Origin: Escherichia coli
GTDB taxonomy: Bacteria > Pseudomonadota > Gammaproteobacteria > Enterobacterales > Enterobacteriaceae
Assembly (NCBI RefSeq): GCF_017348835.2
Contig: NZ_CP071375.1
Strand: one strand, 5' to 3'
DNA: 64,000 nt
Shown here: piece after piece, positions 29,435 through 60,042 of the stretch
Numbering within the stretch: position 1 is the first letter of the stretch
How the letters are laid out: the number at the start of each line of letters is the position of its first letter
Notes under the pieces: generated by a model
What the model was told of the DNA's origin: nothing
Databases searched by the model: none
The model's input: the letters and a program-made list of their open reading frames with translations, nothing else
Translations under genes and position numbers: made by a program

Positions 29435-29444
29435 TTAATTATCC

Positions 29445-35463: not shown

Positions 35464-35557
35464 TTAATTATTTTATAAATTTTTAATCGAGGGACGGATG
35501 GAAATCAATGCCGGATCCCCACCAGTACTAACAGGCGAAAATCCGGGAGAACTGATC

Positions 35558-35887
35558 TTACGGTTGAATAAGATCGTCAATAAACACCGCACCGTCAACG
35601 GTACGCAACCAGCGTGGCGCTTTCAGTTTTGCCGCAAAGAACCAGACCAGTTCACAAAGCAGCCCCGTCAGGGGTTGTTCCATTTTAGATCCCTGCGCCT
35701 GTTCCGTCAGGAGCTGGAGTAATACCTCGCAATATTCACACAATTGCTCAGGATCCAGGTCAAAGTGCGGAAATGAGGCAGGCAGGTCGTCGAGTGTCAG
35801 GCTGTCTACCAGATGGGGTGGAATAGGATCGTTCAGCGTGGGAGACAGAATGGCGATACAGGCGCGAAGTCGTCCGAACAACGCCAT
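35558..35887 (-). CDS. Hypothetical protein, possibly the distal part of a frameshifted gene that starts near 36021
   Basis: 109 aa ORF; upstream on the same strand a 36-codon ORF with RBS ggaggt ends in a stop just before it. Confidence 0.2.
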   Translation of the reverse strand: MALFGRLRACIAILSPTLNDPIPPHLVDSLTLDDLPASFPHFDLDPEQLCEYCEVLLQLLTEQAQGSKMEQPLTGLLCELVWFFAAKLKAPRWLRTVDGAVFIDDLIQP

Positions 35888-36097
35888 TTTCAGCGCCGGA
35901 TCGTGACACTCTATAAGGGTTCAGCGAAGCGATCGCAGTGATCGGCCAGGTCTGTGAAATCGGTGGCAGAACTGAAAGGAATGGACAATAAATCATAATC
36001 AGGGGTGAGGACTGTAGCCATAAGGCAACCTCCGATAAGTAGGCGTTAAAACCACCACCGAAGAGACCAATCTTACGGGTGGTGGAACCGGGCGGAG

Positions 36098-38932
36098 TTG
36101 GTCTTACCGGCCTTATCGGATACCGGCGCATCTTTCGATGCCACCGCCCGGCCCACCATTGAGGTACAGCCGTGCGTGCAACACAAAAAAGACGCTGGCG
36201 CGTCATGTGTCGCCGATAAGACTTATTCAGGAGACCAATCCCGACGCCTGATTTTGCAGACGCGGCATAACGATACAACGATCGCGAAATGGCGACAAAC
36301 CCCTTTCCCGGAAGGCGGCTCGCAAAATCAGAAATATCACAGGGAAAGACAGAGCGCCGCAACGCGGCGGGATGTACCGCTTCACGTACAACGAAAACCA
36401 TTTTCCGGTAGCGGTGGAACTCCCCGGCGAACGCAGGTAACGCTGGAATACGACACCCTGAGCCGGGTGGTGAAAGAGACGGACCCGGCAGGCCGGGTGA
36501 CACAGACGCAGTGGAACGGCAGTTTTGCTGAAATCACGCGCCGGGCACTGGATGACGACCACGTATGGAAGGCGGATTACAACGAACACGGCCAGGTGAT
36601 ACGGGAGACGGACCCGGAAGGGCGCGTCACGCGCTACGGGTATGATGAACAGGGGCTGGCGGTCAGCCGCACGGATGCGCGGGGCGGCGAGGCTGCGCTG
36701 GCGCATGATGCGCGCGGCCAGCTGAGGCGTTACACCGACTGTTCAGGGCGTGCCACGGGTTATGAATACGATGAAGACGGCAACCTGACGGTGGTGACGG
36801 ACGCGGAGGGGAAAACGGTACGTATCCGCTATAACCGTCTGGGACTGCCGGAGACGGTAAATCATCCCGGTAAACAGCAGGACCGTTACACGTGGAACGC
36901 GCTGGGGTTACTGAGCAGCCACCGTCGCATCACAGGCAGTGTGCAGTCCTGGCAGTATACGCCGCGCGGTCTGCTGGCGCTCCACGTAGATGAAGAGAAA
37001 CGGGAGACGCGCTGGCATTATACCGCGGAGGGATGGATTGCCAGTCTGAGCAACGGCAACGGAGCGCTTTACCGGTTCAGTCACGATGCGGACGGACGGC
37101 TGACGGGAGAACAGCGCCCGGACGGTCTGATACGGATGTTTGTGCTGAATGCGGGCGGGTATCCGGTCATCATCCAGACGCAGGGTACAGAAGGCGGGGG
37201 GCGCAATGAACAGCAGGAGCGTGACGCGCTGGGCCGCCTGCTGCGCAGTGACACGCAGCACAGTACACGGACCTTCAGCTACAACCGTCTTGACCAGATA
37301 ACGGAAGTGACGCTCACCCCGACGAAAGAAGGGGAACGGCTGCACCACATGCAGGCGGACACGGTGCGCTTTGCGTATGACCGCAGCGGCTGGCTGACGG
37401 CAGAGCACAGCGTGCACGGCAGCATAAAATATCAGCGTGACGCGCTGGGCAATCCCACCGATATCACGTTGCCGGACGGGCAGCATCTCAGTCATCTTTA
37501 CTACGGCAGCGGACATCTGCTCCAGACGGCACTGGACGGTATCACGGTCAGCGAATATGAGCGTGACAGTCTGCACCGTCAGGTGATGCGCACGCAGGGG
37601 AAACTGGCGACGTTCAGCGGCTACAACGCCGACAACCGGTTAAGCTGGCAGCGCAGTCTGCCAGGTGGCAGCCAGAATCCACAGCAGACCGGTAACCCCC
37701 CGGCGCAGAACGACAGCGTGACGGCGCGGGACTATATCTGGAATGCGGACGGTGAGGTCGGCGGCATCAATGACAAACTGCGCGGTTGCCTGGTGTTCAG
37801 CTATGACCGCAGCGGCTGGCTGACCAGTCGCACGGGTCAGATGTACGACCATGACCATTATTATTACGACAAAGCGGGCAACCTGCTGACGGACGAGTAT
37901 CAGAGCGCGGTGATGGATAACCGCCTGCCGGGCTACGGGCGTGACCGTTACCGCTATAACGAATGGGGCGAACTGACAGAGCGCAGGGACCAGCAACTGG
38001 AGTGGAATGCGCAGGGCCAGTTAACGCGGGTCATCAGCAGCAACAGCGAGACGCGGTATCAGTATGATGCGCTGGGCAGGCGTATCAGCAAGGCGACCAG
38101 CAATCTCCATACCGACCGGGGAGAACGAAGCCGGACAACGTTTGTGTGGGAAGGGGTCCGGCTGTTGCAGGAGACAACGTGGCAGGGAAAGCGGACGTAC
38201 CTGTACGACGCGGAACAGCCGTACACGCCGGTGGCCGCCATCACCGGGCGCGGAGAGAGCCGGAAAATCTGGTATTACCACACGGACCTGACGGGCACGG
38301 TACAGGAGGTGACCGCGGCGGACGGGACGCTGGTGTGGGCGGGCTATCAGGCGGGGTTCGGAGAAAACCGGGGCGACATCAGCAACAGCGGGGCGTATTT
38401 TGAACAGCCGCTGCGGCTGCCGGGGCAGTATTATGATGAAGAGACGGGGCTGCACTATAATCTGTTCAGATATTATGCGCCGGAGTGCGGGAGGTTCGTA
38501 AGCCAGGATCCGATTTCGATCCGGGGTGGTCTGAATCTTTACCGGTATGCGCCGAATCCGATTACTTGGATCGATCCGTGGGGATTGGCAAAGGGGGATT
38601 ATGGTAAAATGCCTACGTTCCCTGGTTGGCAGAAACATCATAATATTCCACAAAATATGGCTACTCATTCGGCAATTGTTGACTCTGGATTTGATATACA
38701 TAATAGTCGTAACATTACAACCTTGCCAAAAACTGGAAGTATAGATACTGCCAGAACAGTGCACAGTGGAATGCACACAGGAGATTATGACAGGATGGTA
38801 AAAAATGCTTTAGATCAAATTGACTCGTTGAATGCTTCCCCTGAGATCAAAAAAATGCATATAGAAGCCTTATCTGATGATATTGGCAATAAATTGAGAA
38901 CAAAACAAATTACGTTAAATGCTGCATGTTGA
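36098..38932 (+). CDS. Rhs / YD-repeat protein, 5'-truncated and frameshifted near 36425, with a C-terminal toxin domain after DPWGL
   Basis: YD repeats (RYxYD, YxYDxxG); frame switch at gaacgcaggtaacgctg; core ends ...NPITWIDPWGL, followed by an AT-rich tip. Confidence 0.7.
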   Translation: MVLPALSDTGASFDATARPTIEVQPCVQHKKDAGASCVADKTYSGDQSRRLILQTRHNDTTIAKWRQTPFPEGGSQNQKYHRERQSAATRRDVPLHVQRKPFSGSGGTPRRTQVTLEYDTLSRVVKETDPAGRVTQTQWNGSFAEITRRALDDDHVWKADYNEHGQVIRETDPEGRVTRYGYDEQGLAVSRTDARGGEAALAHDARGQLRRYTDCSGRATGYEYDEDGNLTVVTDAEGKTVRIRYNRLGLPETVNHPGKQQDRYTWNALGLLSSHRRITGSVQSWQYTPRGLLALHVDEEKRETRWHYTAEGWIASLSNGNGALYRFSHDADGRLTGEQRPDGLIRMFVLNAGGYPVIIQTQGTEGGGRNEQQERDALGRLLRSDTQHSTRTFSYNRLDQITEVTLTPTKEGERLHHMQADTVRFAYDRSGWLTAEHSVHGSIKYQRDALGNPTDITLPDGQHLSHLYYGSGHLLQTALDGITVSEYERDSLHRQVMRTQGKLATFSGYNADNRLSWQRSLPGGSQNPQQTGNPPAQNDSVTARDYIWNADGEVGGINDKLRGCLVFSYDRSGWLTSRTGQMYDHDHYYYDKAGNLLTDEYQSAVMDNRLPGYGRDRYRYNEWGELTERRDQQLEWNAQGQLTRVISSNSETRYQYDALGRRISKATSNLHTDRGERSRTTFVWEGVRLLQETTWQGKRTYLYDAEQPYTPVAAITGRGESRKIWYYHTDLTGTVQEVTAADGTLVWAGYQAGFGENRGDISNSGAYFEQPLRLPGQYYDEETGLHYNLFRYYAPECGRFVSQDPISIRGGLNLYRYAPNPITWIDPWGLAKGDYGKMPTFPGWQKHHNIPQNMATHSAIVDSGFDIHNSRNITTLPKTGSIDTARTVHSGMHTGDYDRMVKNALDQIDSLNASPEIKKMHIEALSDDIGNKLRTKQITLNAAC
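36848..38586 (+). repeat. Rhs conserved core repeat, copy 1
   Basis: About 1.7 kb, near-identical to 39583-41319; 3' part near-identical to 42465-43907. Confidence 0.85.
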
Positions 38933-38947
38933 ATAACGAGGGAATAT

Positions 38948-39538
38948 ATGATTTATTTTTTATCTGATAAAAAAAATACCTTCGGGTTGTTGCATTATGA
39001 TCATAAAACTTCGATCGACTACACAGTATTTAATGAGGGGGTTAGCATAACAGGAATAGACATTAATATTAAATATACATCAAACAATAAAAATGATTTA
39101 AAACGGCTCGAAAAGTGTAACATTATAGAAACGACAGGTCCGACATTGATAAATAATAAGATTAGACATGTTTTTGAAAAATATGCAAGCAATGCGGTTG
39201 AATTTTTTGATGTAGACATTAACGATGATATAGATTTATCAAGGAAGTTTTGTGCGATTAATTTATTATGGGTCTTACCATGTTGTGATATGGAAAAGAG
39301 TGAATTTACATTAAGTAATTTCGATCTTGCCAATCCTAACTATATGTTTATGTATAAAGTTCTAAAAAATGATATTAATAGAGAGGTGGATATATTTCGG
39401 TGTAAGGAGCAGCATACTGAAATTGTTGTAAGTGAAGGAGTTAAGCAAGCATGTATGGACGCGGGAATTAAAGGATTGCGTTTTTGTACGGCTATTGATT
39501 TAACTCCAAAAAATAGATCTGAGTGTGTATTTATTTAA
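38948..39538 (+). CDS. Putative immunity protein for the toxin tip of the Rhs at 36098-38932
   Basis: 196 aa AT-rich ORF immediately after the toxin. Confidence 0.45.
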   Translation: MIYFLSDKKNTFGLLHYDHKTSIDYTVFNEGVSITGIDINIKYTSNNKNDLKRLEKCNIIETTGPTLINNKIRHVFEKYASNAVEFFDVDINDDIDLSRKFCAINLLWVLPCCDMEKSEFTLSNFDLANPNYMFMYKVLKNDINREVDIFRCKEQHTEIVVSEGVKQACMDAGIKGLRFCTAIDLTPKNRSECVFI

Positions 39539-39547
39539 TATATATGT

Positions 39548-41656
39548 ATCACGCGGTGCGGGTATGACGAACAGTTCCTGCCGGAGACGGTCAGCCACCC
39601 CGGTAAACAGCAGGACCGTTACACCTGGAACGCACTGGGGTTACTGAGCAGCCATCGTCGCATCACGGGCAGTGTGCAGTCCTGGCAGTATACGCCGCGC
39701 GGGATGCTGGCGCGCCATACGGATGAAGAGAAACGGGAGACGCGCTGGCAGTACACCCCGGAAGGGCTGGTTGCCAGTCTGAGCAACGGCAACGGAGCGC
39801 TTTACCGGTTCAGTCACGATGCGGACGGACGGCTGACGGGAGAACAGCGCCCGGACGGTCTGATACGGATGTTTGTGCTGAATGCGGGCGGGTATCCGGT
39901 CATCATCCAGACGCAGGGTACAGAAGGCGGGGGGCGCAATGAACAGCAGGAGCGTGACGCGCTGGGCCGCCTGCTGCGCAGTGACACGCAGCACAGTACA
40001 CGGACCTTCAGCTACAACCGTCTTGACCAGATAACGGAAGTGACGCTCACCCCCACGGAAGAAGGGGAACGGCTGCACCACATGCAGGCGGACACGGTGC
40101 GCTTTGCGTATGACCGCAGCGGCTGGCTGACGGCAGAGCACAGCGTGCACGGCAGCATAAAATATCAGCGTGACGCGCTGGGCAATCCCACCGACATCAC
40201 GTTACCGAACGGGCAGCACCTCAGCCATCTTTACTACGGCAGCGGGCATCTGCTCCAGACGGCACTGGACGGTATCACGGTCAGTGAATATGAGCGTGAC
40301 AGTCTGCACCGTCAGGTGATGCGCACGCAGGGGAAACTGGCGACGTTCAGCGGCTACAACGCCGACAACCGGTTAAGCTGGCAGCGCAGCCTGCCAGGTG
40401 GCAGCCAGAACCCACAGCAGGCCGGTAACCCCCCGGCGCAGAAAGACAGCGTGACAGCGCGGGATTATATCTGGAACGCAGACGGTGAAGTCGGCGGCAT
40501 CAATGACAAACTGCGCGGTTGCCTGGTGTTCAGCTATGACCGCAGCGGCTGGCTGACCAGTCGCACGGGTCAGATGTACGACCATGACCATTATTATTAC
40601 GACAAAGCGGGCAATCTGCAGACGGATGAGCATCAGGGAGCGGTGCCGGATAACCGCCTGCCGGGCTACGGGCGTGACCGCTACCGCTATAACGAATGGG
40701 GCGAACTGACAGAGCGCAGGGACCAGCAACTGGAGTGGAATACGCAGGGCCAGTTAACGCGGGTCATCAGCAGCAACAGCGAGACGCGGTATCAGTATGA
40801 TGCGCTGGGCAGGCGTATCAGCAAGGCGACCAGCAATCTCCATACCGACCGGGGAGAACGAAGCCGGACAACGTTTGTGTGGGAAGGGTTCCGGCTGTTG
40901 CAGGAGACAACGTGGCAGGGAAAGCGGACATACCTGTACGACGCGGAACAGCCGTACACGCCGGTGGCGGCCATCACGGGGCGCGGAGAGAGCCAGAAAA
41001 TCTGGTATTACCACACGGACCTGACGGGCACGGTACACGAGGTAACCGCGCCGGACGGGACGCTGGTGTGGGCGGGCTACCAGGCGGGATTTGGCGAAAA
41101 CCGGGGCGACATCAGCAACAGCGGGGCGTACTTTGAGCAGCCGCTGCGACTGCCGGGGCAGTACTTTGACGAAGAAACAGGGCTGCATTACAATCTGTTC
41201 AGGTATTATGCGCCGGAGTGCGGGAGGTTCGTAAGCCAGGATCCGATAGGGTTGCTTGGTGGGCTGAACTTATATGCTTATGCGCCTAATCCGCTGTCAT
41301 GGATCGATCCGTTAGGTTTGACTCCATGTGCAAATGGGGGGAATGCTAAAAAACATGGTGGCACAGGACATAATAATTTTATTGATAATCTTATTGCGGA
41401 TGCTCGCAGTCAGGGTGCTACAAATATCAGGAAAAACCAATGGCAGGTAGATGTTAATGGAAATGTTGTTGGTAAAAATAGACCGGATGTTCAATTTGAT
41501 TTAAATGGTAAACATTATAATATTGAGGTTGATACAACAATAAAAGGCAGCGTTGGTCACCAAAATACTATACCTACACTTGATCCCAACTCAAGAAATA
41601 CATTTTGGCTAATTGATGACTTAGGGAATATTTTAAATGGCCACTCAACCATCTGA
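39548..41656 (+). pseudogene. Orphan 5'-truncated Rhs fragment with a distinct C-terminal toxin domain
   Basis: Rhs homology starts abruptly right after the upstream immunity gene; ORF track gives 39674..41656; core ends DPLGL, then a unique tip. Confidence 0.65.
39583..41319 (+). repeat. Rhs conserved core repeat, copy 2
   Basis: Near-identical to 36848-38586. Confidence 0.85.
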
Positions 41657-42221
41657 TAATAAAAAATTAGTGTTTGCTGTAGTGAACAGTGATTTTAATG
41701 ATATAGAAAGAACTATCCATAATGGATTGAACTGGCCGAGTGAACCAATAAGTAGTCGAAAACTTATTGAGGAAATACACTTGACTATTCAACGTGGTGG
41801 GGTCTTGCCGTCCGAGGGGGTTTTCTATTATCCGTGTATAAATGACAGCAAATTAATTTTTCTGTCTAATTTATCTGATGGATGGGACTCTTTACTTTAT
41901 TGCCTGTCAAAACAGAATAAATCTAGCTATCTACTGTTTAGGTTATTGATGGGGGAATACCCTCTGATGGAAATGAGTTTTATAGAGTCAGGGAAAACAA
42001 TACGTTTAATTAGAGTGATAAAAGAAAATAAATGGATTTTTTATGAGGTCGGGGAACCGTTATGGTTTGAAGAAAAGGAAAACTATTCAAAAAGAAGAAT
42101 CGCAGATAGAATTACTTATGATCTCTTACTCTCCTATTCACGGAAAAATGGCATTGACTTTGATTCCCCCGCATTTTTTAAAACGGAAAAAGAATCACTA
42201 TGGTTGAATGAAATACGATAG
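41637..42221 (+). CDS. Putative immunity protein for the second orphan toxin
   Basis: 194 aa AT-rich ORF overlapping the toxin 3' end. Confidence 0.4.
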   Translation: MATQPSDNKKLVFAVVNSDFNDIERTIHNGLNWPSEPISSRKLIEEIHLTIQRGGVLPSEGVFYYPCINDSKLIFLSNLSDGWDSLLYCLSKQNKSSYLLFRLLMGEYPLMEMSFIESGKTIRLIRVIKENKWIFYEVGEPLWFEEKENYSKRRIADRITYDLLLSYSRKNGIDFDSPAFFKTEKESLWLNEIR

Positions 42222-42232
42222 TTTATTTAAAT

Positions 42233-42271
42233 AAAAAGCCGGAAAAGAAATTAAACTTTCCCGGCTTTTTT
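42233..42271. terminator. Bidirectional hairpin terminator
   Basis: aaaaagccggaaaag...ctttcccggctttttt; homologous to the hairpin at 44613-44650. Confidence 0.5.
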
Positions 42272-42276
42272 ATTAT

Positions 42277-42465
42277 TTAACTCTCGTTCAGCACACTAAA
42301 CATCCCGTCCCGCATCCCCTTAACTGCCTGTTTAACCTGATAAAGCTCCCTGCGCAGTTCCTGTACTTCGTTGTTATCCGCAAGCAGGATCAGACATCCC
42401 TCCGAGATCTTCACGGTAACGCCCGTGCCGATCTCAAATCCCGCTTCTCTCAGCCATTTGGCGCT
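42277..42465 (-). pseudogene. SymE-like toxin gene, 5'-truncated by the adjoining Rhs fragment
   Basis: C-terminal 60 aa AKWLREAGFEIGTGVTVKISEGCLILLADNN... resemble SymE; the upstream part of the ORF is antisense Rhs sequence. Confidence 0.5.
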
Positions 42466-43907
42466 GAATGCGGGCGGGTTTCCGGTCATCATCCAGACGC
42501 AGGGCACAGAGGGCGGGGTGCGTAATGAGCGGCAGGAGCGTGATGCGCTGGGCCGCCTGCTGCGCAGTGACACGCAGCACAGTACACGGACCTTCAGCTA
42601 CAACCGTCTTGACCAGATAACGGAAGTGACGCTCACCCCCACGGAAGAAGGGGAACGGCTGCACCACATGCAGGCGGACACGGTGCGCTTTGCGTATGAC
42701 CGCAGCGGCTGGCTGACGGCAGAGCACAGCGTGCACGGCAGCATAAAATATCAGCGTGACGCGCTGGGCAATCCCACCGACATCACGTTACCGAACGGGC
42801 AGCACCTCAGCCATCTTTACTACGGCAGCGGGCATCTGCTCCAGACGGCACTGGACGGTATCACGGTCAGTGAATATGAGCGTGACAGTCTGCACCGTCA
42901 GGTGATGCGCACGCAGGGGAAACTGGCGACGTTCAGCGGCTACAACGCCGACAACCGGTTAAGCTGGCAGCGCAGCCTGCCAGGTGGCAGCCAGAACCCA
43001 CAGCAGGCCGGTAACCCCCCGGCGCAGAAAGACAGCGTGACAGCGCGGGATTATATCTGGAACGCAGACGGTGAAGTCGGCGGCATCAATGACAAACTGC
43101 GCGGTTGCCTGGTGTTCAGCTATGACCGCAGCGGCTGGCTGACCAGTCGCACGGGTCAGATGTACGACCATGACCATTATTATTACGACAAAGCGGGCAA
43201 TCTGCAGACGGATGAGCATCAGGGAGCGGTGCCGGATAACCGCCTGCCGGGCTACGGGCGTGACCGCTACCGCTATAACGAATGGGGCGAACTGACAGAG
43301 CGCAGGGACCAGCAACTGGAGTGGAATACGCAGGGCCAGTTAACGCGGGTCATCAGCAGCAACAGCGAGACGCGGTATCAGTATGATGCGCTGGGCAGGC
43401 GTATCAGCAAGGCGACCAGCAATCTCCATACCGACCGGGGAGAACGAAGCCGGACAACGTTTGTGTGGGAAGGGTTCCGGCTGTTGCAGGAGACAACGTG
43501 GCAGGGAAAGCGGACATACCTGTACGACGCGGAACAGCCGTACACGCCGGTGGCGGCCATCACGGGGCGCGGAGAGAGCCAGAAAATCTGGTATTACCAC
43601 ACGGACCTGACGGGCACGGTACACGAGGTAACCGCGCCGGACGGGACGCTGGTGTGGGCGGGCTACCAGGCGGGATTTGGTGAAAACCGGGGCGACATCA
43701 GCAACAGCGGGGCGTACTTTGAGCAGCCGCTGCGGCTGCCGGGGCAGTATTATGATGAAGATACGGGGCTGCACTATAATCTGTTCAGATATTATGCGCC
43801 GGAGTGCGGGCGGTTTATCAGTCAGGACCCGATAGGGCTGGCGGGAGGAATAAACCTATATGCTTATGCGCCTAATCCGCTAAGTTATATTGATCCTCTT
43901 GGGCTTT
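42465..43907 (+). repeat. Rhs conserved core repeat, copy 3
   Basis: Near-identical to 37146-38586 and 39880-41319. Confidence 0.85.
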
Positions 43908-44335
43908 GTAAATTAAGGGGAAGCGATGGGCGCTACAGAAGTGCACAGAATATTCAGGAAGAAATAGGCGGCCTACCCAATTTTGCAGGAAAAACTCCAG
44001 GAGAAATACGACAAACTTTGCGTAATCGAGGTTATTCGTCGGTACAAGCGTATAGTGGAGGAGAGGTCTGGACAAAAGCATTACCTGACGGAAATACTGT
44101 TGCAGTGAGGCTTGATCCGGCAAATCCTCGCTCACCTTCACATTATGCTGATGCTGTACCTCATGCTCATATTGAAACAGTTCCAACATCCAGTGTTTCT
44201 AATGGGAATTATCGCCCGCGAGACGTGACTGGCAGGCATACTGCCACTGGTGGGGTTTCTGATCGAGGAACAAATCCGAATCATAACGCTGATGTTTACA
44301 TTCCAATGTCTCCGGGACGATTCCCATATGATTAA
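42465..44335 (+). pseudogene. Orphan 5'-truncated Rhs fragment with a third distinct C-terminal toxin domain
   Basis: Rhs homology starts at gctgaatgcgggcggg (matches 37139 in copy 1); core ends DPLGL at 43907, followed by a unique tip. Confidence 0.65.
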
Positions 44336-44346
44336 TGTGAGGTTTT

Positions 44347-44610
44347 ATGAATATCCGAAATCAATATAATGAAGCCTTAAATAAATTAGAAGTTGATGTT
44401 AATGATGGTTTGAGAGATTTAATAAACATATATTGTGTGGCTATTGATTCTTTTGAAAATGATATCGTTGACTCGATTGCTTTATACGTGATTGATATGG
44501 GAAATAAAGATACTTGTCGATATCTACAAGAAGTCTTATCAGAGAATGAAGATCCTTATTTAGTAAAAGAATTTAATGCATGGATAAAAGAAATTAAGAA
44601 AAAATATTAA
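44347..44610 (+). CDS. Putative immunity protein for the third orphan toxin
   Basis: 87 aa AT-rich acidic ORF immediately after the toxin. Confidence 0.4.
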   Translation: MNIRNQYNEALNKLEVDVNDGLRDLINIYCVAIDSFENDIVDSIALYVIDMGNKDTCRYLQEVLSENEDPYLVKEFNAWIKEIKKKY

Positions 44611-44612
44611 AA

Positions 44613-44650
44613 TAAAAGCCGGGAAGGTTATAAAATCTTCCCGGCTTTTT
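44613..44650. terminator. Bidirectional hairpin terminator
   Basis: aaaagccgggaagg...cttcccggcttttt. Confidence 0.5.
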
Positions 44651-44654
44651 ATTT

Positions 44655-44939
44655 TTAATTCTCGTTCAGTACACTAAACATCCCGTCCCGCATCCCCTTA
44701 ACCGCCTGTTTAACCTGATAAAGTTCCCTGCGCAGTTCCTGTACTTCGTTGTTATCGGCAAGCAGGATCAGGCAGCCTTCCGAGATCTTCACAGTAACGC
44801 CCGTGCCGATCGAAAATTCCGCTTCTCTCAGCCATTTGGCGCTGATTTTGATCACCGGCGTGTCGCTGCTGTTGGGCAGATATCCTACGGTACAACGGCG
44901 TTGTGTTTTGGAAATGGTGACTTCTGGCGTAATATCATG
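44655..44939 (-). CDS. SymE-like toxin homolog; no canonical ATG at the 5' end of the open frame
   Basis: The open frame reads ...RRCTVGYLPNSSDTPVIKISAKWLREAEFSIGTGVTVKISEGCLILLA..., resembling K-12 SymE (LTVSY...ITLKGQWLEAAGF...GTAVDVKVMEGCIVLTA) as recalled; ORF track starts at 44855. Confidence 0.5.
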   Translation of the reverse strand, partial: HDITPEVTISKTQRRCTVGYLPNSSDTPVIKISAKWLREAEFSIGTGVTVKISEGCLILLADNNEVQELRRELYQVKQAVKGMRDGMFSVLNEN

Positions 44940-45001
44940 TTTAAGTTAGGGGCTTTCGTAGTCATACCCCGACTCTCCCCGGCCCTAAACACAACCCCCA
45001 C

Positions 45002-45781
45002 TCACCACAACCTAAACTCATCCGCATCCTGCCATGCCGGAAACTTTTCTCTATATTCCCGCAATGCCATCATCGACAGCTCCGCATCAATGCGCGTTGC
45101 CTGATGCGCGTCGGCAGTAGCGATAATCTCGCCTTGTGGATTAATCACCCGGCTGTCACCGCGATAATGGCAGCCGTTGCCATCGCTGCCGACGCGATTG
45201 CATCCCGCCACATACGCCTGATTCTCAATCGCGCGGGCCGTCAGCAATGCCTGCCAGTGCAGAGAGCGCGGAGCAGGCCAGTTGGCGACGTACAGGGCGA
45301 GGTCATAATCGTTGAGATTGCGCGACCACACAGGAAAACGTAAGTCGTAGCACACCAGCGGCAAAATACGCCAGCCGCGCCATTCCACAATCACTCGCGC
45401 ATTGCCCGCTTTATAATGCAGATGCTCATCAGCCATTCGGAACAGATGACGCTTATCATAAAAATGTACCGTGCCGCCCGGCTCAACCAGCAAAAAGCGG
45501 TTAACTGAACCAGACTCCGTTTGTAATGCAACACTGCCTGCAATCAGCGCATTGCACTGCTGCGCTTTAGCTGTCATCCAGTTCACTACGTCATCTTGCG
45601 CTAGCGACGAAGCTGCCGCTTCCATGGCAAAGCCGCTGGTAAACATCTCCGGTAGAACGATCACATCGCGCCCGGTAATACCTTCCAGTTGACGATCAAA
45701 ATGACGCAGGTTGGCAGGACCATCCATCCACACCAGTGGTTGCTGCAAAAGCGTAATCTTCAAACCAGGCACGGTGTACAA
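45002..45781 (-). CDS. yafV: Omega-amidase YafV (nitrilase superfamily)
   Basis: 259 aa C-N hydrolase family ORF; synteny with ivy. Confidence 0.8.
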   Translation of the reverse strand: MYTVPGLKITLLQQPLVWMDGPANLRHFDRQLEGITGRDVIVLPEMFTSGFAMEAAASSLAQDDVVNWMTAKAQQCNALIAGSVALQTESGSVNRFLLVEPGGTVHFYDKRHLFRMADEHLHYKAGNARVIVEWRGWRILPLVCYDLRFPVWSRNLNDYDLALYVANWPAPRSLHWQALLTARAIENQAYVAGCNRVGSDGNGCHYRGDSRVINPQGEIIATADAHQATRIDAELSMMALREYREKFPAWQDADEFRLW

Positions 45782-45925
45782 CTCCTTTATGCGAAGGGTT
45801 TTATAACTTTAACACCTTATCAGGCAGTTGCCTTAGCGCAGAATAAATTGATAACAAATGCTGATATTGGAAATATCTGATTTGCAAATTATCGTGTTAT
45901 CGCCAGGCTTTAGGAGGTTAATAAC

Positions 45926-53100: not shown

Positions 53101-53457
53101 TTACATCTGGGCTGAAAACTCACGTTCTAAGACATCAACAATGAGCTGGTTTTTTGAAATGGAATGTTGTCTGGCGACGATGGTCAGCCGCGAATCAATG
53201 TGATGAGGAACACGAAGCGTCAGGCGTTTTTGCTCTTCTTCTTCACGAAAAGGGGCAATACCGTCCTCTTCACAATCCGCCATCCACTCATCCAGCGCGC
53301 TTTCGCCCTCACGATATAATGCCTCAATGCTTGTGGCTACAAAGTCACAATAACCGTTTACATTGAGGAATTTGCCGCGAAATGCATTGATATCGGCTTC
53401 AAATGTCACTGCGGCTGGTTGACCTTTAATTGTGATAATGTTCGATGCTTTATTCAT
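53101..53457 (-). CDS. HicB-like antitoxin (N-terminal HicB fold plus C-terminal RHH)
   Basis: 118 aa; C-terminus LTLRVPHHIDSRLTIVARQHSISKNQLIVDVLEREF looks like an RHH DNA-binding domain; overlaps the upstream ORF by 8 nt. Confidence 0.45.
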   Translation of the reverse strand: MNKASNIITIKGQPAAVTFEADINAFRGKFLNVNGYCDFVATSIEALYREGESALDEWMADCEEDGIAPFREEEEQKRLTLRVPHHIDSRLTIVARQHSISKNQLIVDVLEREFSAQM

Positions 53458-53749
53458 AATCTACCCCTACACAGTTAACAAACCACTCCTTAAGACCTGC
53501 TACTGCGCCTTTATCCATCACATTCTTTGGATGTGGCTCATGTGTACTGAATTTGGTCGTTCCAATCTGAAATTTCCTTCTGGACCCATTGTTATTTTTT
53601 ATTGTTCCACCCACCGCTTTAATGAGCGCAACAACATCATCCCATTTAATTCCAGATTTTGGCGGCTCCGTCATTACATCGTCGAATGTTTTTCTATGGC
53701 GGGAGCCTAGCGCGCTGACCTTAATCATACTATCAATCCATGACATCAT
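53450..53749 (-). CDS. Putative HicA-like toxin partner (uncertain)
   Basis: 99 aa ORF translationally coupled to the HicB-like gene; family assignment is by position only. Confidence 0.3.
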   Translation of the reverse strand: MMSWIDSMIKVSALGSRHRKTFDDVMTEPPKSGIKWDDVVALIKAVGGTIKNNNGSRRKFQIGTTKFSTHEPHPKNVMDKGAVAGLKEWFVNCVGVDYE

Positions 53750-53832
53750 TGTATGGTGTCATCGTAGTATGTTTGCAATGTGACGTCAATCAATGGTGTC
53801 AGATGCATGCAAAGCATGGAAAAGAATCCCCA

Positions 53833-55572
53833 TCAACTCAACGCCCCCATAATCTTCAACTCCAGCTCATCCGGCACTTCGTTATACGACAGCACATGCA
53901 GCCCCGGCGCAAACAACCTTGCGTAGCGCGCTAGCAAAGGGCGCAGCTGCGGCGGCACCAGCAGCACCGGGTCTTTCCCCGCCGCTTTCATCTGCTCCTT
54001 CACCTGCGGCATCGTGCTCTGGAACTGGTTGAGCATATTCGGGTCGACCGGCACGCTGTCGAGCATCACTTTGCCGCCCTGTTGCGCCTGATTCACCACG
54101 TTGGTCAGCAGATTTTCCAGCTCATTATTCAGCGTATACACCGTCAGCTCCTGCTTGCGAACGAAAGGATGAGTAATGCTGCGCCGCAGCGCCAGGCGCA
54201 CATCGGCCGCCAGCAGAATATGATCTTTGGTCACCGCGCTACTGGCGACCAGCACGGTGGCGATGGTGACGATGTCGCGCAGGGAAACGCCTTCGGTCAG
54301 CAGCGCACGGTACACTTTCAGCAACTGGCTGTAATTCAGCGCCGCGCTCAAATCCTCCGCCAGGCGCGGTGCCATTGACGACAAACGGTTATGCAACTGC
54401 GTGATGTCATCATAGTTAAACAAATCAGGAATATAACTGCGCACAATCTTATTCACATGGGTGGCAATCACGCTGGCGCTGTCGATCACCTGATACCCCA
54501 TATTCAGCGCCTTCGCTTTCTGCGCAGGCTGGATCCAGGTGACTGGCATCCCATACGCCGGGTCGTTCCCCAGCACGCCGTCTATCTCGCCGTAGGTTTC
54601 GCTGGAGGGCAGGGCCATCAGTTTATCCGCCGGAATATCCGCTTCATCAGCCTTAATGCCGTTGATGAAAATGGCGTACTGGCTGGGCTTGAGGCGGAAA
54701 TTTTCCCTAATGCGGATCTCCGGCAGCAGCACGCCGTTGCCGTCGGATATCACCTGCCGCACGCCGCGGATCCGCTGGGTGAGCGGGTTACCCTGTGCTT
54801 TATCGACCAGCGCTACTAGCTTGTAGCCAAGGCTTAAGCTGATGGGTTCGATCAGCGGAATGGTTTCCCAACTGACCTGTTGCTCGCTGGTTTCAGTGAT
54901 GGTGCGGGTCAGCGTTTCGAGGCTTTTCTCCTCCGCCTCTGCCGCCTGCGGCTGTTTGCTCATTCGCCAGCCGGTAAAGCCAAGCAGGGCGCTGAACATC
55001 AGGAACGGCAGGTGCGGCATCCCCGGCACCACTGCCAGCACAAACATAATTCCGGTAGCGGTGTAGAGCACCGACGGGCTTGCCAGCAGTTGGTTACGCA
55101 CGTCATGGGCGATATCGCCGTTGTCGCTGACGCGGGTGACGATAATCGCCGCTGCGGTGGAGAGCAGCAGGGAAGGGATCTGCGCCACCAGCCCATCGCC
55201 GATGGTCATCAGCACATATTGCTGGAAGGCGGCATCGGCGCTCAGGTTGTATTTGAAGATCCTGATACAGACGCCGCCGATCAGGTTGATCGCCAGAATC
55301 ATCATCCCGGCGATGGCATCCCCGCGCACAAACTTCGATGCCCCGTCCATCGCGCCGTAGAAATCGGCTTCGCTGGCGACATCTTTACGCCGGGTTTGCG
55401 CCTGCGCCTGGTTGATCAATCCGGCGTTAAGGTCGGCGTCAATCGCCATCTGCTTGCCGGGCATCGCGTCAAGGGTAAAGCGGGCAGAAACCTCGGAAAT
55501 ACGCTCGGCCCCTTTGGTGACGACAATAAAGTTGATTGTCAACAGCGTCAGTAAATCCGAGCGTGAAAGCAT
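53833..55572 (-). pseudogene. lfhA: FlhA-like flagellar export protein fragment (Flag-2 remnant)
   Basis: 579 aa ORF homologous to FlhA but lacking the N-terminal ~120 aa. Confidence 0.7.
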
Positions 55573-55574
55573 TA

Positions 55575-56302
55575 TCGCCGCGCTGCACGGGCAGTCGATT
55601 TTTAACGGTGGTGGGCTGTCGCCGTTAAATAAAATCAGCCCGTCTCATCCGCCAAAACCTGCCACCGTGGCGGTGCCGGAAGAGACGGAGAAAAAAGCGC
55701 GTGATGTGAATGAGAAAACGGCGCTGCTGAAGAAGAAATCCGCCACCGAGCTTGGCGAGTTGGCAACCAGTATCAACACCATTGCCCGTGATGCGCATAT
55801 GGAAGCGAATCTGGAGATGGAGATTGTTCCCCAGGGATTACGCGTGCTGATTAAAGACGACCAGAATCGCAATATGTTCGAACGCGGCAGCGCGAAGATT
55901 ATGCCGTTCTTTAAAACGCTGCTGGTGGAGCTAGCGCCAGTGTTCGACTCGCTCGATAACAAAATTATTATTACCGGGCATACCGATGCGATGGCCTACA
56001 AAAACAATATCTACAACAACTGGAACCTTTCGGGCGATCGCGCGCTTTCAGCTCGTCGGGTGCTGGAAGAGGCCGGAATGCCGGAAGATAAAGTGATGCA
56101 GGTAAGCGCAATGGCGGACCAGATGCTGCTGGATGCCAAAAATCCGCAAAGCGCGGGCAATCGGCGTATTGAGATTATGGTGCTGACCAAAAGTGCGTCC
56201 GATACGCTGTATCAATACTTTGGTCAGCATGGGGATAAAGTGGTGCAGCCACTGGTGCAAAAGCTGGATAAGCAGCAGGTGCTTTCGCAGCGAACGCGTT
56301 AA
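55575..56302 (+). pseudogene. lafU: MotB-like fragment (Flag-2 remnant)
   Basis: OmpA-like C-terminal domain (NWNLSGDRALSARRV...NRRIEI); the 5' part of the ORF is antisense lfhA. Confidence 0.6.
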
Positions 56303-56340
56303 ATGCTGAATCTTTACGCATTTCTCAAACCCTGAAATCA

Positions 56341-56356
56341 CTGTATACTTTACCAG
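56341..56356. promoter_or_regulatory. LexA (SOS) box of dinB
   Basis: CTGTATACTTTACCAG just upstream of the dinB start. Confidence 0.7.
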
Positions 56357-56372
56357 TGTTGAGAGGTGAGCA

Positions 56373-57428
56373 ATGCGTAAAATCATTCATGTGGATATGG
56401 ACTGCTTTTTCGCAGCGGTGGAGATGCGCGACAATCCCGCCCTGCGCGATATCCCTATTGCTATTGGCGGCAGCCGCGAACGTCGAGGGGTGATCAGCAC
56501 CGCCAATTATCCCGCGCGTAAATTTGGCGTACGTAGCGCTATGCCGACAGGGATGGCGCTCAAATTATGCCCACATCTCACCTTGCTTCCGGGGCGCTTT
56601 GACGCCTACAAAGAAGCCTCAAATCATATCCGTGAAATCTTCTCGCGCTACACCTCGCGCATTGAACCGTTGTCACTGGATGAAGCCTATCTCGATGTCA
56701 CCGATAGCGTCCATTGCCACGGTTCTGCGACCCTCATCGCCCAGGAAATCCGCCAGACGATTTTCAGCGAGCTGCAACTGACGGCGTCTGCGGGCGTGGC
56801 ACCAGTAAAGTTTCTCGCCAAAATCGCCTCCGACATGAATAAACCCAACGGCCAGTTTGTGATTACGCCGGCAGAAGTTCCGGCATTTTTACAAACCTTA
56901 CCACTGGCAAAAATCCCCGGCGTCGGCAAAGTCTCGGCGGCAAAACTGGAAGCGATGGGGCTGCGGACCTGCGGTGATGTACAAAAGTGTGATCTGGTGA
57001 TGCTGCTTAAACGCTTTGGCAAATTTGGCCGCATTTTGTGGGAGCGTAGTCAGGGGATTGACGAACGCGATGTTAACAGCGAACGGTTGCGAAAATCCGT
57101 CGGCGTGGAACGCACGATGGCGGAAGATATTCATCACTGGTCTGAATGTGAAGCGATTATCGAGCGGCTGTATCCGGAACTTGAACGCCGTCTGGCAAAG
57201 GTAAAACCTGATTTACTGATTGCTCGCCAGGGGGTGAAATTAAAGTTCGACGATTTTCAGCAAACCACTCAGGAGCACGTCTGGCCGCGGCTGAATAAAG
57301 CTGACTTAATCGCCACCGCGCGTAAAACCTGGGATGAACGCCGCGGCGGGCGCGGTGTGCGACTGGTGGGGCTGCATGTGACGTTGCTTGACCCGCAAAT
57401 GGAAAGACAACTGGTGCTGGGATTATGA
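56373..57428 (+). CDS. dinB: DNA polymerase IV
   Basis: 351 aa; [18 protein letters not shown]-family signature. Confidence 0.9.
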
Positions 57429-57877
57429 ATAACATACAAATAAGAAACTATCAGCCTGGCGATTTTCAGCAACTATGCGCTATTTTCATTAGAGCGGTTA
57501 TGATGACCGCCAGTCAGCATTATTCACCACAACAAATTGCCGCCTGGGCGCAGATTGACGAATCTCGCTGGAAGGAGAAACTCGCGAAATCACAAGTGCG
57601 GGTTGCAGTCATTAATGCACAACCGGTTGGTTTTATTTCCCGCATTGAACATTATATCGATATGTTATTTGTTGACCCTGAATACACCCGCCGTGGGGTT
57701 GCCAGCGCTTTGTTAAAACCTTGGATTAAGTCTGAATCCGAACTTACGGTGGACGCAAGCATAACCGCAAAACCCTTTTTTGAACGTTATGGTTTTCAGA
57801 CAGTTAAGCAGCAGCGCGTTGAATGCCGGGGAGCGTGGTTTACTAATTTTTCTATGCGATATAAACCGCAACATTAA
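57425..57877 (+). CDS. yafP: GNAT acetyltransferase YafP
   Basis: 150 aa; start overlaps the dinB stop (ATGA). Confidence 0.8.
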
Positions 57878-58183: not shown

Positions 58184-58450
58184 ATGGAATGGTACATGGG
58201 CAAATATATTCGTCCCTTATCCGATGCGGTATTTACCATCGCATCTGATGACCTGTGGATCGAGAGTTTAGCGATCCAACAATTACACACCACGGCAAAT
58301 TTACCCAACATGCAGCGCGTAGTGGGGATGCCAGATTTACACCCCGGACGCGGCTACCCGATTGGCGCAGCGTTCTTCTCTGTTGGTCGTTTTTACCCGA
58401 CAAGACGTCGCGGTAACAGTGCTGGAAACAGAAACAGGTCGTTACTCTGA
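58184..58450 (+). pseudogene. ykfJ: RtcB-like fragment
   Basis: 88 aa ORF resembling an RtcB fragment; fused out of frame to prfH. Confidence 0.5.
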
Positions 58451-58786
58451 CACCCTGCGTTCAGCGCTGGTTTCTCTGAATGGCGACAACGCATGGGCAT
58501 TAAGCGAAAGCTGGTATGGCACTATTCAGTGGATTTGTCGGAGTCCGTATCGCCCACATCATGGGCGTAAAAACTGGTTTCTGGGCATTGGGCGTTTTAC
58601 TGCTGATGAGCAGGAACAATCCGACGCGGTCCGTTATGAGACGCTGCGTTCGTCGGGGCCGGGCGGTCAACATGTCAATAAAACCGATTCGGCGGTGCGC
58701 GCCACGCATCTGGCTACCTGGATTAGCGTGAAGGTTCAGTCAGAGCGCAGCCAGCATGCCAACAAGCGGCTGGCACGATTGCTGAT
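58397..58786 (+). pseudogene. prfH: Peptide chain release factor homolog PrfH, 5' part, interrupted by an IS element
   Basis: GGQ motif [17 protein letters not shown]; reading frame continues at 60097. Confidence 0.7.
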
Positions 58787-58828
58787 TGAACCGCCCCGGG
58801 TTTCCTGGAGAGTGTTTTATCTGTGAAC

Positions 58829-59716
58829 TCAGGCTGCCAGATCATTATTTCCGATGGAAGCATAATAAGCTTTTTCTGCTTCTGCCGGAGGAATATGGCC
58901 CAGCCTTTCCAGCAATCGTCGATTGTTATACCAGTCCACCCACGTTAGTGTGGCCAGTTCCACTTCTGTCCGGTTTTTCCAGCTCTTACGGTGTATTACC
59001 TCCGCTTTGTAAAGACCATTGATGCTCTCCGCCATCGCGTTGTCATACGAGTCGCCAGTACTCCCTGTTGATGCCAGTAATCCGGCTTCCTTAAGCCGCT
59101 GCGTGTAGGCCAGCGATACATACTGAGAACCTTTATCACTGTGATGGATTGTGCCGGACGGCCGACGGGCCCACAACGCCTGCTCCAGTGCATCCAGCAC
59201 GAATGTTGTTTCCATGGATGATGAGACCTGCCATCCCACGATGTATCCGGCGAACACATCAATGATGAACGCCACATAAACGAAGCCCTGCCATGTGCTT
59301 ACCCAGGTAAAATCAGCCACCCACAACTGGTCTGGACGTTCTGCCACGAACTGACGGTTTACGCGGTCGCATGCGGCAACGGCTTTCCGGCTGACGGTAG
59401 TGCGGACCTTTTTACCCCGGAGAACACCGGCAAGTCCCATAACTGCCATGAGACGTGCCACAGTGCATCTGGCCACTCTGATACCTTCCCGTAACAACTG
59501 ACGCCAGACTTTACGCACACCGTATACCTGGTGATTTTCATCGTATACGCGCTGTATCTCTTTCTTCAGCCAGTCATCGTGCTGCGCACGGGCACTGCGT
59601 TTATCCGGATGATGTCGCTGTTGCTGACAATGGTAATACGTTGACGGGGCAATATGCAGTTCGCTGCATACCGGTCCGACCCCGTACTGCTCACGCAGCT
59701 TATCCAGCAGTGGCAT
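58829..59716 (-). CDS. IS3-family transposase OrfB (DDE integrase domain)
   Basis: 295 aa rve-domain ORF; probably expressed as an OrfAB fusion by -1 frameshifting. Confidence 0.85.
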   Translation of the reverse strand: MPLLDKLREQYGVGPVCSELHIAPSTYYHCQQQRHHPDKRSARAQHDDWLKKEIQRVYDENHQVYGVRKVWRQLLREGIRVARCTVARLMAVMGLAGVLRGKKVRTTVSRKAVAACDRVNRQFVAERPDQLWVADFTWVSTWQGFVYVAFIIDVFAGYIVGWQVSSSMETTFVLDALEQALWARRPSGTIHHSDKGSQYVSLAYTQRLKEAGLLASTGSTGDSYDNAMAESINGLYKAEVIHRKSWKNRTEVELATLTWVDWYNNRRLLERLGHIPPAEAEKAYYASIGNNDLAA

Positions 59717-60042
59717 TATTTTTTCCAGAGGCGGTCGAACTCCGCCTTCGCAAAATAAGCGGAAGCCTGGCGAAGGATATCGTTACTGCGGCGCAGTTCA
59801 CGATTTTCACGTTCCAGCTCTTTCAGACGCTGACGTTCAGCGGTGGTGAGTCCACCATCACCACTCCCGGTATCCCGCTCATGCTGGCGAACCCAGACAC
59901 GCAGAGTCTCCGGCGTACAGCCAATCTTTGGGGCAATGGAACAAATTGCCGCCCACTGTGAGTCATATTCATCCTGACTTTCCAGAACCATACGAATCGC
60001 CCGCTGACGGACTTCGGGGGAAAAACGAGTATTTTTAGTCAT
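59716..60042 (-). CDS. IS3-family transposase OrfA (HTH)
   Basis: 108 aa, [22 protein letters not shown]...; leucine-zipper-like C-terminus. Confidence 0.85.

What the first reader, a model, noticed from the sequence alone, without database searches (positions are those of the whole stretch)
53833..56302. Flag-2 deletion scar: truncated lfhA joined to a lafU fragment
A FlhA homolog lacking its N-terminus abuts a MotB-like C-terminal fragment. This is consistent with the remnant of a second flagellar system reduced to two gene fragments, as described for K-12. It is a known type of scar, useful mainly for strain phylogeny.
Basis: established knowledge. Interest (0 to 1): 0.25.

Follow-up and report, generated by a model that had tools for sequence, protein, structure and literature searches.

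The report
Flag-2 flagellar cluster deletion scar
This is the well-known scar left in most E. coli when a 35-38 kb second flagellar gene cluster was deleted, leaving two gene stumps joined head to head; it is ordinary, but the same base-level junction turns up in at least four other genera (probably five), which the usual one-off-accident account does not explain well.

Summary
Window 53833-55536 (- strand) is the 3' 567 codons of lfhA, the Flag-2 FlhA, lacking its first 130 codons. Window 55535-56302 (+ strand) is the 3' 255 codons of lafU, a MotB-like gene, lacking its first 52 codons and therefore its MotB plug and membrane segment. The stumps abut 5'-to-5' at a 3-bp microhomology, GAT (55534-55536). 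Relative to intact clusters, 35.3-38.1 kb is missing. The junction is the K-12 one and is contiguous in about 4,065 of 5,426 complete E. coli genomes.

Three further results go beyond the finding.
- The same codon-level junction occurs in E. albertii, Citrobacter, Kluyvera, Atlantibacter and a Dryocola-like bacterium, each time next to genus-specific sequence.
- Scar alleles are not one clade. Within lineage ST131, scar and intact genomes show no SNP in 22 kb of flanks.
- Both stumps stay open reading frames with piN/piS of 0.025-0.05, the same as in intact alleles, although they have decayed in E. albertii.

So the junction either recurs precisely or moves between backgrounds without trace. 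I could not settle which. Function of the stumps is unlikely.

The parts
53833..55536 (-). lfhA remnant: the 3' 567 codons plus stop of the Flag-2 FlhA homologue. The first 130 codons, which encode the N-terminal membrane helices, are missing.
   Evidence: Pfam FHIPEP profile positions 99-656/657, E=7.9e-188. Alignment to the intact 697-aa LfhA. PGAP marks it a pseudogene 'missing N-terminus' in the identical strain PE164.
55534..55536 (.). Deletion junction: the microhomology GAT shared by both parental sites. It lies within an imperfect 16-bp direct repeat, GTTGATGATCATCAGG (lfhA antisense) versus GTGGATTGTCAACAGC (lafU), 11 of 16 positions identical.
   Evidence: Three-way alignment with the intact locus L004. 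Breakpoint contexts in four E. coli and three other genera.
55535..56302 (+). lafU remnant: the 3' 255 codons plus stop of the MotB-like stator gene. The first 52 codons, including the membrane segment and the MotB plug, are missing.
   Evidence: Pfam finds OmpA only, whereas intact LafU has MotB_plug plus OmpA. Alignment.
55537..55572 (-). Junction-created 5' extension of the lfhA ORF: ATG at 55572 plus 11 codons, MLSRSDLLTLLT, read from the antisense strand of lafU.
   Evidence: ORF list and alignment. This ATG is absent in Kluyvera, Citrobacter, Atlantibacter sp. RC6 and A. hermannii.
55517..55534 (+). Junction-created 5' extension of the annotated lafU CDS: GTG start at 55517, peptide (M)TTIKL, read from the antisense strand of lfhA.
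   Evidence: PGAP lafU CDS coordinates in L001 mapped to the window. The same TTIKL/TTMKL signature appears in truncated LafU proteins of other genera.

Best explanation
This is the canonical Flag-2 deletion scar. A single deletion removed everything between codon 130 of lfhA and codon 53 of lafU: 35-38 kb and about 40 genes of the lateral-flagellar cluster. The two convergently placed terminal genes were left as 5'-truncated stumps joined 5'-to-5' at a 3-bp microhomology. Neither stump can do its original job. LfhA' lacks its first membrane helices, and the rest of the export apparatus is gone. LafU' lacks the membrane anchor and plug, so its OmpA-like domain cannot reach the periplasm. The locus does nothing mechanistically; it is the empty allele of a presence/absence polymorphism. 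Shown here: the anatomy, the junction, its identity with K-12, and its population frequency. Inferred: (a) the join arose by illegitimate, microhomology-mediated recombination; (b) the stumps stay open and look 'selected' because scar alleles are repeatedly derived from, or overwritten up to the homology boundary by, functional intact alleles circulating in the same species, not because the stumps are useful.
For: Domain truncations and alignments to intact proteins. Junction mapping. The scar is contiguous in 4,062-4,072 of 5,426 complete E. coli genomes, and the intact breakpoint sequence is retained in 1,246. It has the same ungapped structure as K-12 and 11 other sampled scars. Intact clusters occupy the same site. 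Published descriptions agree: PMC3032704, PMC6993521 and PMC5369007 report about 1700 bp of lfhA and 769 bp of lafU in a Flag-2-negative ST131 strain. Evidence for inertness: E. albertii carries the same junction but with a frameshifted lfhA stump and an indel plus early stop in lafU. The new ATG of the lfhA ORF is not conserved across genera. Intact alleles nearly identical to the scar flanks exist in every species checked, giving a source for refreshing the stumps: A. subterranea 19 differences in 1704 nt and 2 in 588; K. ascorbata 8 in 489; E. coli 0-4 in 1698.
Against: A single historical accident does not easily explain three results. (1) The same codon-level junction occurs in at least four other genera (a fifth known from one protein only) at 76-80% nucleotide identity to the window, with only a 2-nt microhomology (AT) in Atlantibacter. 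(2) ST131 scar genomes (SE15, AREA_505) and an intact genome (Esc27) show no true SNP in 11.4 + 10.8 kb of flanks, at a locus where haplotypes normally differ by 2-6%. (3) There is no sign of relaxed constraint in 12 E. coli scars, excluding AF23, whose lfhA stump is partly deleted: piN/piS is 0.025 for lfhA' and 0.048 for lafU', against 0.033 and 0.063 in intact alleles, with no stop or indel. Boundary-limited gene conversion, my proposed reconciliation, is an inference I could not test.
Confidence: 0.88

Rival explanations
1. The junction is produced repeatedly by a precise mechanism, not inherited from one event. The mechanism could be a structure- or enzyme-directed hot spot at the two conserved coding motifs, or conservative excision and re-insertion of the Flag-2 interior. 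Independent lineages, species and genera would then converge on the same scar, and each scar would be young.
For: The junction is identical in E. coli, E. albertii, Citrobacter (four or more species), Kluyvera (two), Atlantibacter (three) and a Dryocola-like strain, always flanked by conspecific sequence. Scar haplotypes are interleaved with intact ones right up to the junction: K-12 versus S163-2 differ at 1 of 1698 sites, AREA_505 versus Esc27 at 0 of 1698 plus 0 of 1268. There is no SNP in 22 kb of flanks between ST131 scar and intact genomes. The Esc27 interior is as divergent from other intact alleles as its flanks are, with no discontinuity at the breakpoint. No stump decay appears in 12 E. 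coli scars. Short palindromes sit at both breakpoints: TGATGATCATCA in lfhA and ACGCTGT-N9-ACAGCGT centred on the lafU break (read directly from the sequence).
Against: No mechanism is known. The microhomology is only 2-3 bp. The annotated conserved Flag-2 genes list no recombinase. The reciprocal (circle) junction was found in none of 5,426 E. coli genomes and not in metagenome contigs. On the lafU side, several unrelated E. coli scars share a junction-proximal haplotype (TACTT...TTG) that differs from the intact partner of K-12. That points to transfer of a pre-existing scar, not de novo formation, in those cases. The palindromes follow from conserved amino-acid motifs and common codons, and the lafU one is not kept in K. 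ascorbata.
Confidence: 0.28
2. The two stumps are domesticated genes. A truncated FlhA-like protein and/or a cytoplasmic OmpA-like LafU fragment would be kept by purifying selection, which would also explain why this particular junction is retained across genera.
For: Both ORFs are open in all 12 full-length E. coli scars sampled; in a thirteenth, AF23, the lafU stump is open but a second deletion has removed part of the lfhA stump. The lfhA ORF is open in Kluyvera, Citrobacter and three Atlantibacter species; the lafU ORF is open wherever the contig reaches its stop, in Citrobacter MGH106, Atlantibacter sp. RC6 and A. hermannii. dN/dS is 0.02-0.03 (lfhA') and 0.04-0.09 (lafU') among Atlantibacter species, and piN/piS is 0.025-0.05 in E. 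coli scars. PGAP annotates lafU as an ordinary CDS.
Against: Intact alleles 99% identical in protein sequence exist in Atlantibacter (P0004, P0124) and in every other species checked, so the low dN/dS can be inherited from functional genes. The upstream start codon of lfhA' is not conserved, and Citrobacter has none in the open extension. E. albertii's stumps are broken. LafU' has lost the only segment that could take its peptidoglycan-binding domain across the membrane (plus established MotB topology). A second deletion has removed part of the lfhA stump in strain AF23.
Confidence: 0.06
3. The scar arose once, long ago, and the junction has been passed between species and genera by homologous recombination, or kept as a very old polymorphism. 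Its flanks would later be homogenised by within-species recombination.
For: Identity of the junction to the nucleotide is most simply explained by descent. Every species examined that carries the scar also carries intact alleles. Flag-2 is reported as a recombination-associated region in ST131 (PMC4637896). Part of the E. coli scar population shares a lafU-side haplotype.
Against: It requires recombination between sequences about 20% divergent, or maintenance of both alleles over genus-level time. It also requires complete erasure of donor tracts to within 12 nt on the lfhA side. The ST131 pair shows no tract at all. De novo deletions with other endpoints should be far more common than cross-genus import, yet alternative junctions are rare: P0239 and P0240, one contig and two contigs respectively.
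Confidence: 0.45

Closest known systems
E. coli K-12 lfhA (b0229, formerly fhiA) / lafU (b0230, formerly mbhA) pseudogene pair: the Flag-2 scar of Ren et al. 2005
   Same: Same two stumps, same orientation, same junction position and same neighbours on the dinB side. Ungapped alignment: lfhA part 95.1% identical, lafU part 98.3%.
   Different: The window's lfhA allele is a rare haplotype. It differs from every other sampled allele at 76-104 of 1698 sites, and only 2 of 5,443 records are at least 99% identical. hicBA replaces K-12's rayT next to lfhA, and yafNO is absent downstream of dinB.
Intact Flag-2 (lateral flagellar) clusters of E. coli 042, W, EC958 and the strains sampled here (S163-2, 23CRST013, Esc27)
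   Same: Same chromosomal site. The stumps are colinear with the 3' parts of lfhA and lafU at 94-97% identity.
   Different: The 35.3-38.1 kb interior is missing (lfhB through lafT, plus the 5' ends of both terminal genes).
lfhA-lafU 'en bloc deletion' reported across Enterobacterales (De Maayer et al. 2020, PMC6993521: 531 of 4028 strains)
   Same: Same class of event. That paper already notes truncated lfhA and lafU copies in Escherichia, Citrobacter and other taxa that also hold complete loci.
   Different: In the text I could read, that paper does not say the junction is identical to the codon across genera, and it lists Atlantibacter as lacking flag-2. Here the junction is shown to be the same in at least four other genera, and both scar and intact alleles are found in Atlantibacter.
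Excision scars of integrase-driven genomic islands (attB sites)
   Same: A binary present/absent state, an identical junction in many backgrounds, and no flanking change between states.
   Different: No integrase, no tRNA or att core (only 2-3 bp in common), endpoints inside two structural genes, and no circular junction detected. It resembles such a scar only in outcome.

Membership tests
Flag-2 lfhA-lafU deletion scar (K-12 type) | A 3' fragment of the Flag-2 FlhA homologue lacking the N-terminus | tested here: met
   FHIPEP profile positions 99-656 of 657; 130 codons missing.
Flag-2 lfhA-lafU deletion scar (K-12 type) | A 3' fragment of LafU (MotB-like) lacking the membrane and plug region | tested here: met
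   OmpA domain only; 52 codons missing.
Flag-2 lfhA-lafU deletion scar (K-12 type) | The fragments abut directly, 5'-to-5', with no Flag-2 gene between them, at the K-12 junction | tested here: met
   Junction GAT at 55534-55536. Ungapped colinearity with K-12 strain NCM3722 across the junction.
Flag-2 lfhA-lafU deletion scar (K-12 type) | Chromosomal context yafL ... dinB, with intact clusters at the same site in other strains | tested here: met
   Annotation of the identical strain PE164 and of K-12. Intact loci.
Functional FlhA (FHIPEP export-gate protein) | Complete N-terminal membrane domain and partner export-gate genes (flhB, fliPQR) in the cluster | tested here: not met
   The first 130 residues are absent, and lfhB and lfiPQR are deleted.
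Functional MotB-type stator subunit | N-terminal membrane helix and plug (PF13677), plus a MotA partner | tested here: not met
   MotB_plug is absent and lafT (motA) is deleted.
Site-specific excisable element (considered for the recurrent-junction reading) | A recombinase associated with the element | tested here: inconclusive
   The annotations of three intact clusters list none among conserved genes. The hypothetical proteins were not searched individually.
Site-specific excisable element (considered for the recurrent-junction reading) | Shared core sequence at both ends, and a detectable reciprocal (circle) junction | tested here: not met
   The core is only GAT, or AT in Atlantibacter. 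The reciprocal junction is absent from 5,426 E. coli genomes and from metagenome contigs.
Gene under purifying selection (considered for the stumps) | Conserved start codon, and ORF integrity wherever the scar occurs | tested here: not met
   The ATG at -12 is missing in four of six other taxa. The E. albertii stumps are disrupted.

The most novel reading that the evidence does not exclude
The Flag-2 scar may not be a one-off historical accident. It could be the product of a precise, repeatable event: a hot-spot deletion, or conservative excision and re-insertion of the 35-38 kb interior. Such an event would strike the same two nucleotides inside lfhA and lafU in different clones, species and genera of Enterobacteriaceae. 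That would explain three results: the junction is identical in at least four other genera; ST131 scar and intact genomes show no SNP in 22 kb of flanks; and the stumps never look like old pseudogenes.
Probability: 0.28. Interest if true: 0.65.

Novelty: already known. Interest (0 to 1): 0.3.

Why it matters
As a feature of this window it matters little. It is the standard empty allele of the Flag-2 locus, annotated in every K-12 genome.

The population pattern around it is more interesting. A 35-38 kb flagellar system is present or absent in at least five species of four genera checked directly here. The breakpoint is always the same and the flanking sequence is always conspecific. In the pandemic clone ST131, Flag-2 presence is used as a subclade marker, yet the two states differ by nothing else over 22 kb.

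If the junction forms repeatedly, there is an undescribed precise deletion mechanism acting inside coding sequence. If it spreads by recombination, this locus is a clean natural example of traceless allele swapping up to a homology boundary. Either way, Flag-2 presence or absence should not be read as a simple phylogenetic character.

Tried and rejected
1. Primary source. Ren et al. 2005 (PMC545627) is not held, so its statements are cited only through PMC6993521, PMC3032704 and PMC5369007.

2. 'Atlantibacter has no intact Flag-2, so low dN/dS proves the stumps are selected.' Table 1 of PMC6993521 and the dN/dS values suggested this. It was rejected when a full-length LfhA (P0004) and LafU (P0124) from A. 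subterranea turned up with 99% protein identity.

3. A conserved new start codon for the lfhA ORF. None found.

4. A circular or tandem reciprocal junction. No hit in metagenome contigs or in 5,426 E. coli genomes.

5. A scar-specific haplotype next to the junction, which a single origin predicts. None on the lfhA side; a partial one on the lafU side that is also carried by the intact strain Esc27.

6. A recent foreign origin for the ST131 interior. Divergence from three other intact alleles is continuous across the breakpoint. Only three comparators were available.

7. The single 'mismatch' in the ST131 right flank. It is the T/G of the imperfect repeat 3 nt inside the junction, not a SNP.

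8. Resemblance of the breakpoints to dif, hix/gix, gyrase or HUH-transposase (TTGAT) cleavage sites. This was considered from memory only and dropped as unsupported.

9. Literature on fhiA/mbhA phenotypes. The search returned mostly unrelated acronyms and was not pursued.

10. Promoter scan. It gave only weak consensus matches near the junction, which are not evidence of expression.

Full report
**Observation.** The - strand carries an ORF at 53833..55572 (579 aa), and the + strand an ORF ending at 56302.
- The first ORF matches Pfam FHIPEP at E=7.9e-188, but only over profile positions 99-656 of 657. An intact Flag-2 LfhA from E. coli strain H2 (697 aa) matches positions 1-656.
- The second ORF retains only an OmpA domain, whereas intact LafU (307 aa) also has the MotB_plug domain.
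- Protein alignments show the first lfhA-derived residue is I131 and the first lafU-derived residue is I53. So 130 and 52 codons are missing.
- The finding's coordinates are exact.

**Junction.** BLAST of window 53700-56400 against the intact locus L004 gives two colinear blocks whose ends overlap.
- Base-by-base, lfhA-derived sequence runs to 55536 and lafU-derived sequence starts at 55534.
- The shared GAT is the microhomology. It sits inside an imperfect 16-bp direct repeat, 11 of 16 positions identical.
- The two stumps are joined 5'-to-5'. The ATG of the 579-aa ORF (55572) and the GTG of the annotated lafU CDS (55517) are therefore each read from the antisense strand of the other gene, so both N-termini are junction artefacts.
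- Relative to complete clusters, the deletion removed 35.3 kb (S163-2), 36.8 kb (23CRST013) or 38.1 kb (Esc27).

**Identity with the known scar.**
- The region is 100% identical to E. coli strain PE164 (a pig isolate). There PGAP annotates an FlhA pseudogene 'missing N-terminus' and a lafU CDS, between hicAB/yafL and dinB/yafP.
- It aligns without gaps to K-12 strain NCM3722 across the junction.
- The scar is contiguous in 4,062-4,072 of 5,426 complete E. coli genomes. The intact breakpoint sequences survive in 1,246 genomes.
- Published accounts describe the same thing: K-12 fhiA/mbhA as remnants (PMC3032704), a deletion between lfhA and lafU with direct repeats at its ends (PMC6993521, citing Ren et al. 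2005), and about 1700 bp of lfhA plus 769 bp of lafU in a Flag-2-negative ST131 strain (PMC5369007).

**What the locus does.** Nothing of its original function can remain.
- LfhA' lacks its first 130 residues, and its export-gate partners are deleted.
- LafU' lacks the membrane anchor and plug, and its MotA partner is deleted.
- I treat it as the empty allele of a presence/absence polymorphism.

**An unexpected population pattern.** I sampled 13 scar and 6 intact alleles from complete genomes.
- The lfhA 3' region is unusually polymorphic: 50-105 differences per 1698 nt, with piS of about 0.19.
- Almost all differences are synonymous. piN/piS is 0.025 among scars and 0.033 among intact alleles. 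For lafU the values are 0.048 and 0.063.
- No sampled E. coli stump has an internal stop or an indel. One strain, AF23, has lost part of its lfhA stump to a second deletion.
- Scars do not form a clade. K-12's stump differs from the intact S163-2 allele at 1 of 1698 sites, strain 98201 from H2 at 4 sites, and AREA_505 from Esc27 at none. The haplotype match runs to within 12 nt of the junction.
- The window's own lfhA allele is an outlier, 76-104 differences from every other sampled allele.

**The ST131 case.**
- AREA_505 and SE15 (ST131 clade A; both scars) are identical over 22.7 kb.
- Compared with Esc27 (intact), they show no true SNP in 11.4 kb to the left or 10.8 kb to the right. The single reported mismatch is the T/G of the imperfect repeat, 3 nt inside the junction.
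- From a ranked sampling, about 93-185 genomes carry this haplotype as a scar and about 370-450 carry it as an intact locus.
- The literature places a 'Flag-2 insertion' at ST131 subclade B2 and calls the region recombination-associated (PMC5369007, PMC4637896). An import from a foreign donor should have left SNPs in flanks that normally differ by 2-6% between haplotypes, and none is seen.
- The Esc27 interior is as divergent from three other intact alleles as its flanks are, with no step at the breakpoint.

**Other genera.** A degenerate junction pattern searched in one genome per species found seven enterobacterial species-representative genomes: E. albertii, an E. coli-like representative genome, Kluyvera ascorbata, Citrobacter sp. 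MGH106, and three Atlantibacter species. It also found two E. coli-like contigs filed under MAGs of other organisms.
- In each, antisense lfhA joins lafU at the same codons, at 76-80% nucleotide identity to the window.
- Truncated LafU proteins carrying the tell-tale antisense-lfhA leader (V)TT[I/M]KL before IVNS add C. amalonaticus, C. gillenii, Citrobacter sp. R-1.5.2, a second Kluyvera species and a Dryocola-like strain.
- The lfhA stump is a full open frame in Kluyvera, Citrobacter and all three Atlantibacter species. In E. albertii it is frameshifted, and that species' lafU stump has an indel and an early stop.
- Conspecific intact alleles exist and are nearly identical to the scar flanks: A. 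subterranea 19 of 1704 and 2 of 588 sites different; K. ascorbata 8 of 489.
- In Atlantibacter the two parental sites share only AT at the breakpoint.
- Independent random deletions would hit the same pair of nucleotides with a probability of order 1 in (2100 x 920) per event. This is my own arithmetic from the two gene lengths.

**Interpretation of the pattern.** Three readings remain.
- (a) One ancient or horizontally passed junction. Its flanks would be continually overwritten by within-species recombination with intact alleles. Pairing necessarily stops at the homology boundary, so tracts can end exactly at the junction. This keeps the stumps looking functional and explains the decay in E. 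albertii, but it needs several steps to explain the ST131 identity.
- (b) A precise, repeatable deletion, or excision and re-insertion. This explains the cross-genus identity, the traceless ST131 difference and the absence of decay at once. However, it has no known mechanism, and the core is only 2-3 bp. The cluster annotations list no recombinase, and no reciprocal junction was detected. On the lafU side, several unrelated scars share a haplotype that looks transferred, not newly made.
- (c) Functional stumps. This is weakened by four results: intact alleles are available as a source of constraint; the lfhA start codon is not conserved; E. albertii's stumps have decayed; and LafU' has lost its only route to the periplasm.
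- I rate the identity of the feature at 0.88. Treating the three origin readings as non-exclusive, I rate (a) about 0.45, (b) about 0.28 and (c) about 0.06.

**Verdict.** The finding is correct and ordinary. Its novelty class is 'already known' and its interest is low as stated. The residual interest lies in the identical junction across genera and the traceless state difference in ST131. The papers I could read do not describe either, and both can be tested directly by a clone-level phylogenetic count and by junction-specific PCR on intact strains.

Noticed in passing
window 53101-53749 (- strand): A hicA/hicB toxin-antitoxin pair lies between yafL and the lfhA stump. K-12 and ST131 carry the REP-associated transposase gene rayT (yafM) at that position. 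The hicAB variant occurs with both scar and intact Flag-2 (strains H2 and AST240), so this neighbouring swap is independent of the deletion.
   Followed up: partly
window 56373-57877: dinB is followed directly by yafP, with a 4-bp overlap. The yafN-yafO toxin-antitoxin pair that sits between them in K-12 is absent here, as it is in ST131 and strain H2.
   Followed up: partly
window 58196-60042: rtcB and prfH are reduced to short fragments (about 204 and 417 bp) and are followed by an IS3-family element (58829-60042, - strand, programmed frameshift). Beyond it lie prophage tail-fibre genes. Other strains have intact rtcB-prfH followed by pepD at this position.
   Followed up: no
window ~28600-45900 (mapped from PE164 record 3966499-3983883): A degraded type VI secretion and Rhs island lies between tRNA-Asp and yafV. 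It includes tssF, tssG, an ImpA-family gene, a truncated VgrG, several Rhs core fragments with immunity-like genes, and a SymE-family toxin. ST131 and K-12 have nothing at this position.
   Followed up: no
window 53833-55536: The window's lfhA-stump haplotype is rare. Only 2 of 5,443 E. coli records are at least 99% identical over the query spanning it, and it differs from all 18 other sampled alleles by 4.5-6%. The lfhA 3' region as a whole has synonymous diversity near 0.19, which seems high for an E. coli chromosomal gene (my own general impression, not computed here).
   Followed up: partly
L020 (E. coli AF23, NZ_OZ547209.1), locus 1853-3120: A second deletion has removed the 3' two-thirds of the lfhA stump. 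A Pin-like serine recombinase gene and phage tail genes now lie next to the remaining 621 bp, showing that the scar is itself being eroded in some strains.
   Followed up: no
proteins P0239 and P0240 (E. coli): These are rare LafU-containing ORFs in which other flagellar-looking sequence joins lafU further downstream. They imply alternative Flag-2 deletions with non-canonical endpoints, on one contig (P0239) and two contigs (P0240).
   Followed up: no
L024 and L025 (MAG contigs labelled Clostridiales and Collinsella): Two contigs filed under Gram-positive metagenome-assembled genomes carry the E. coli scar at 95-96% identity to the window. They are almost certainly E. coli contamination in those bins.
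   Followed up: no
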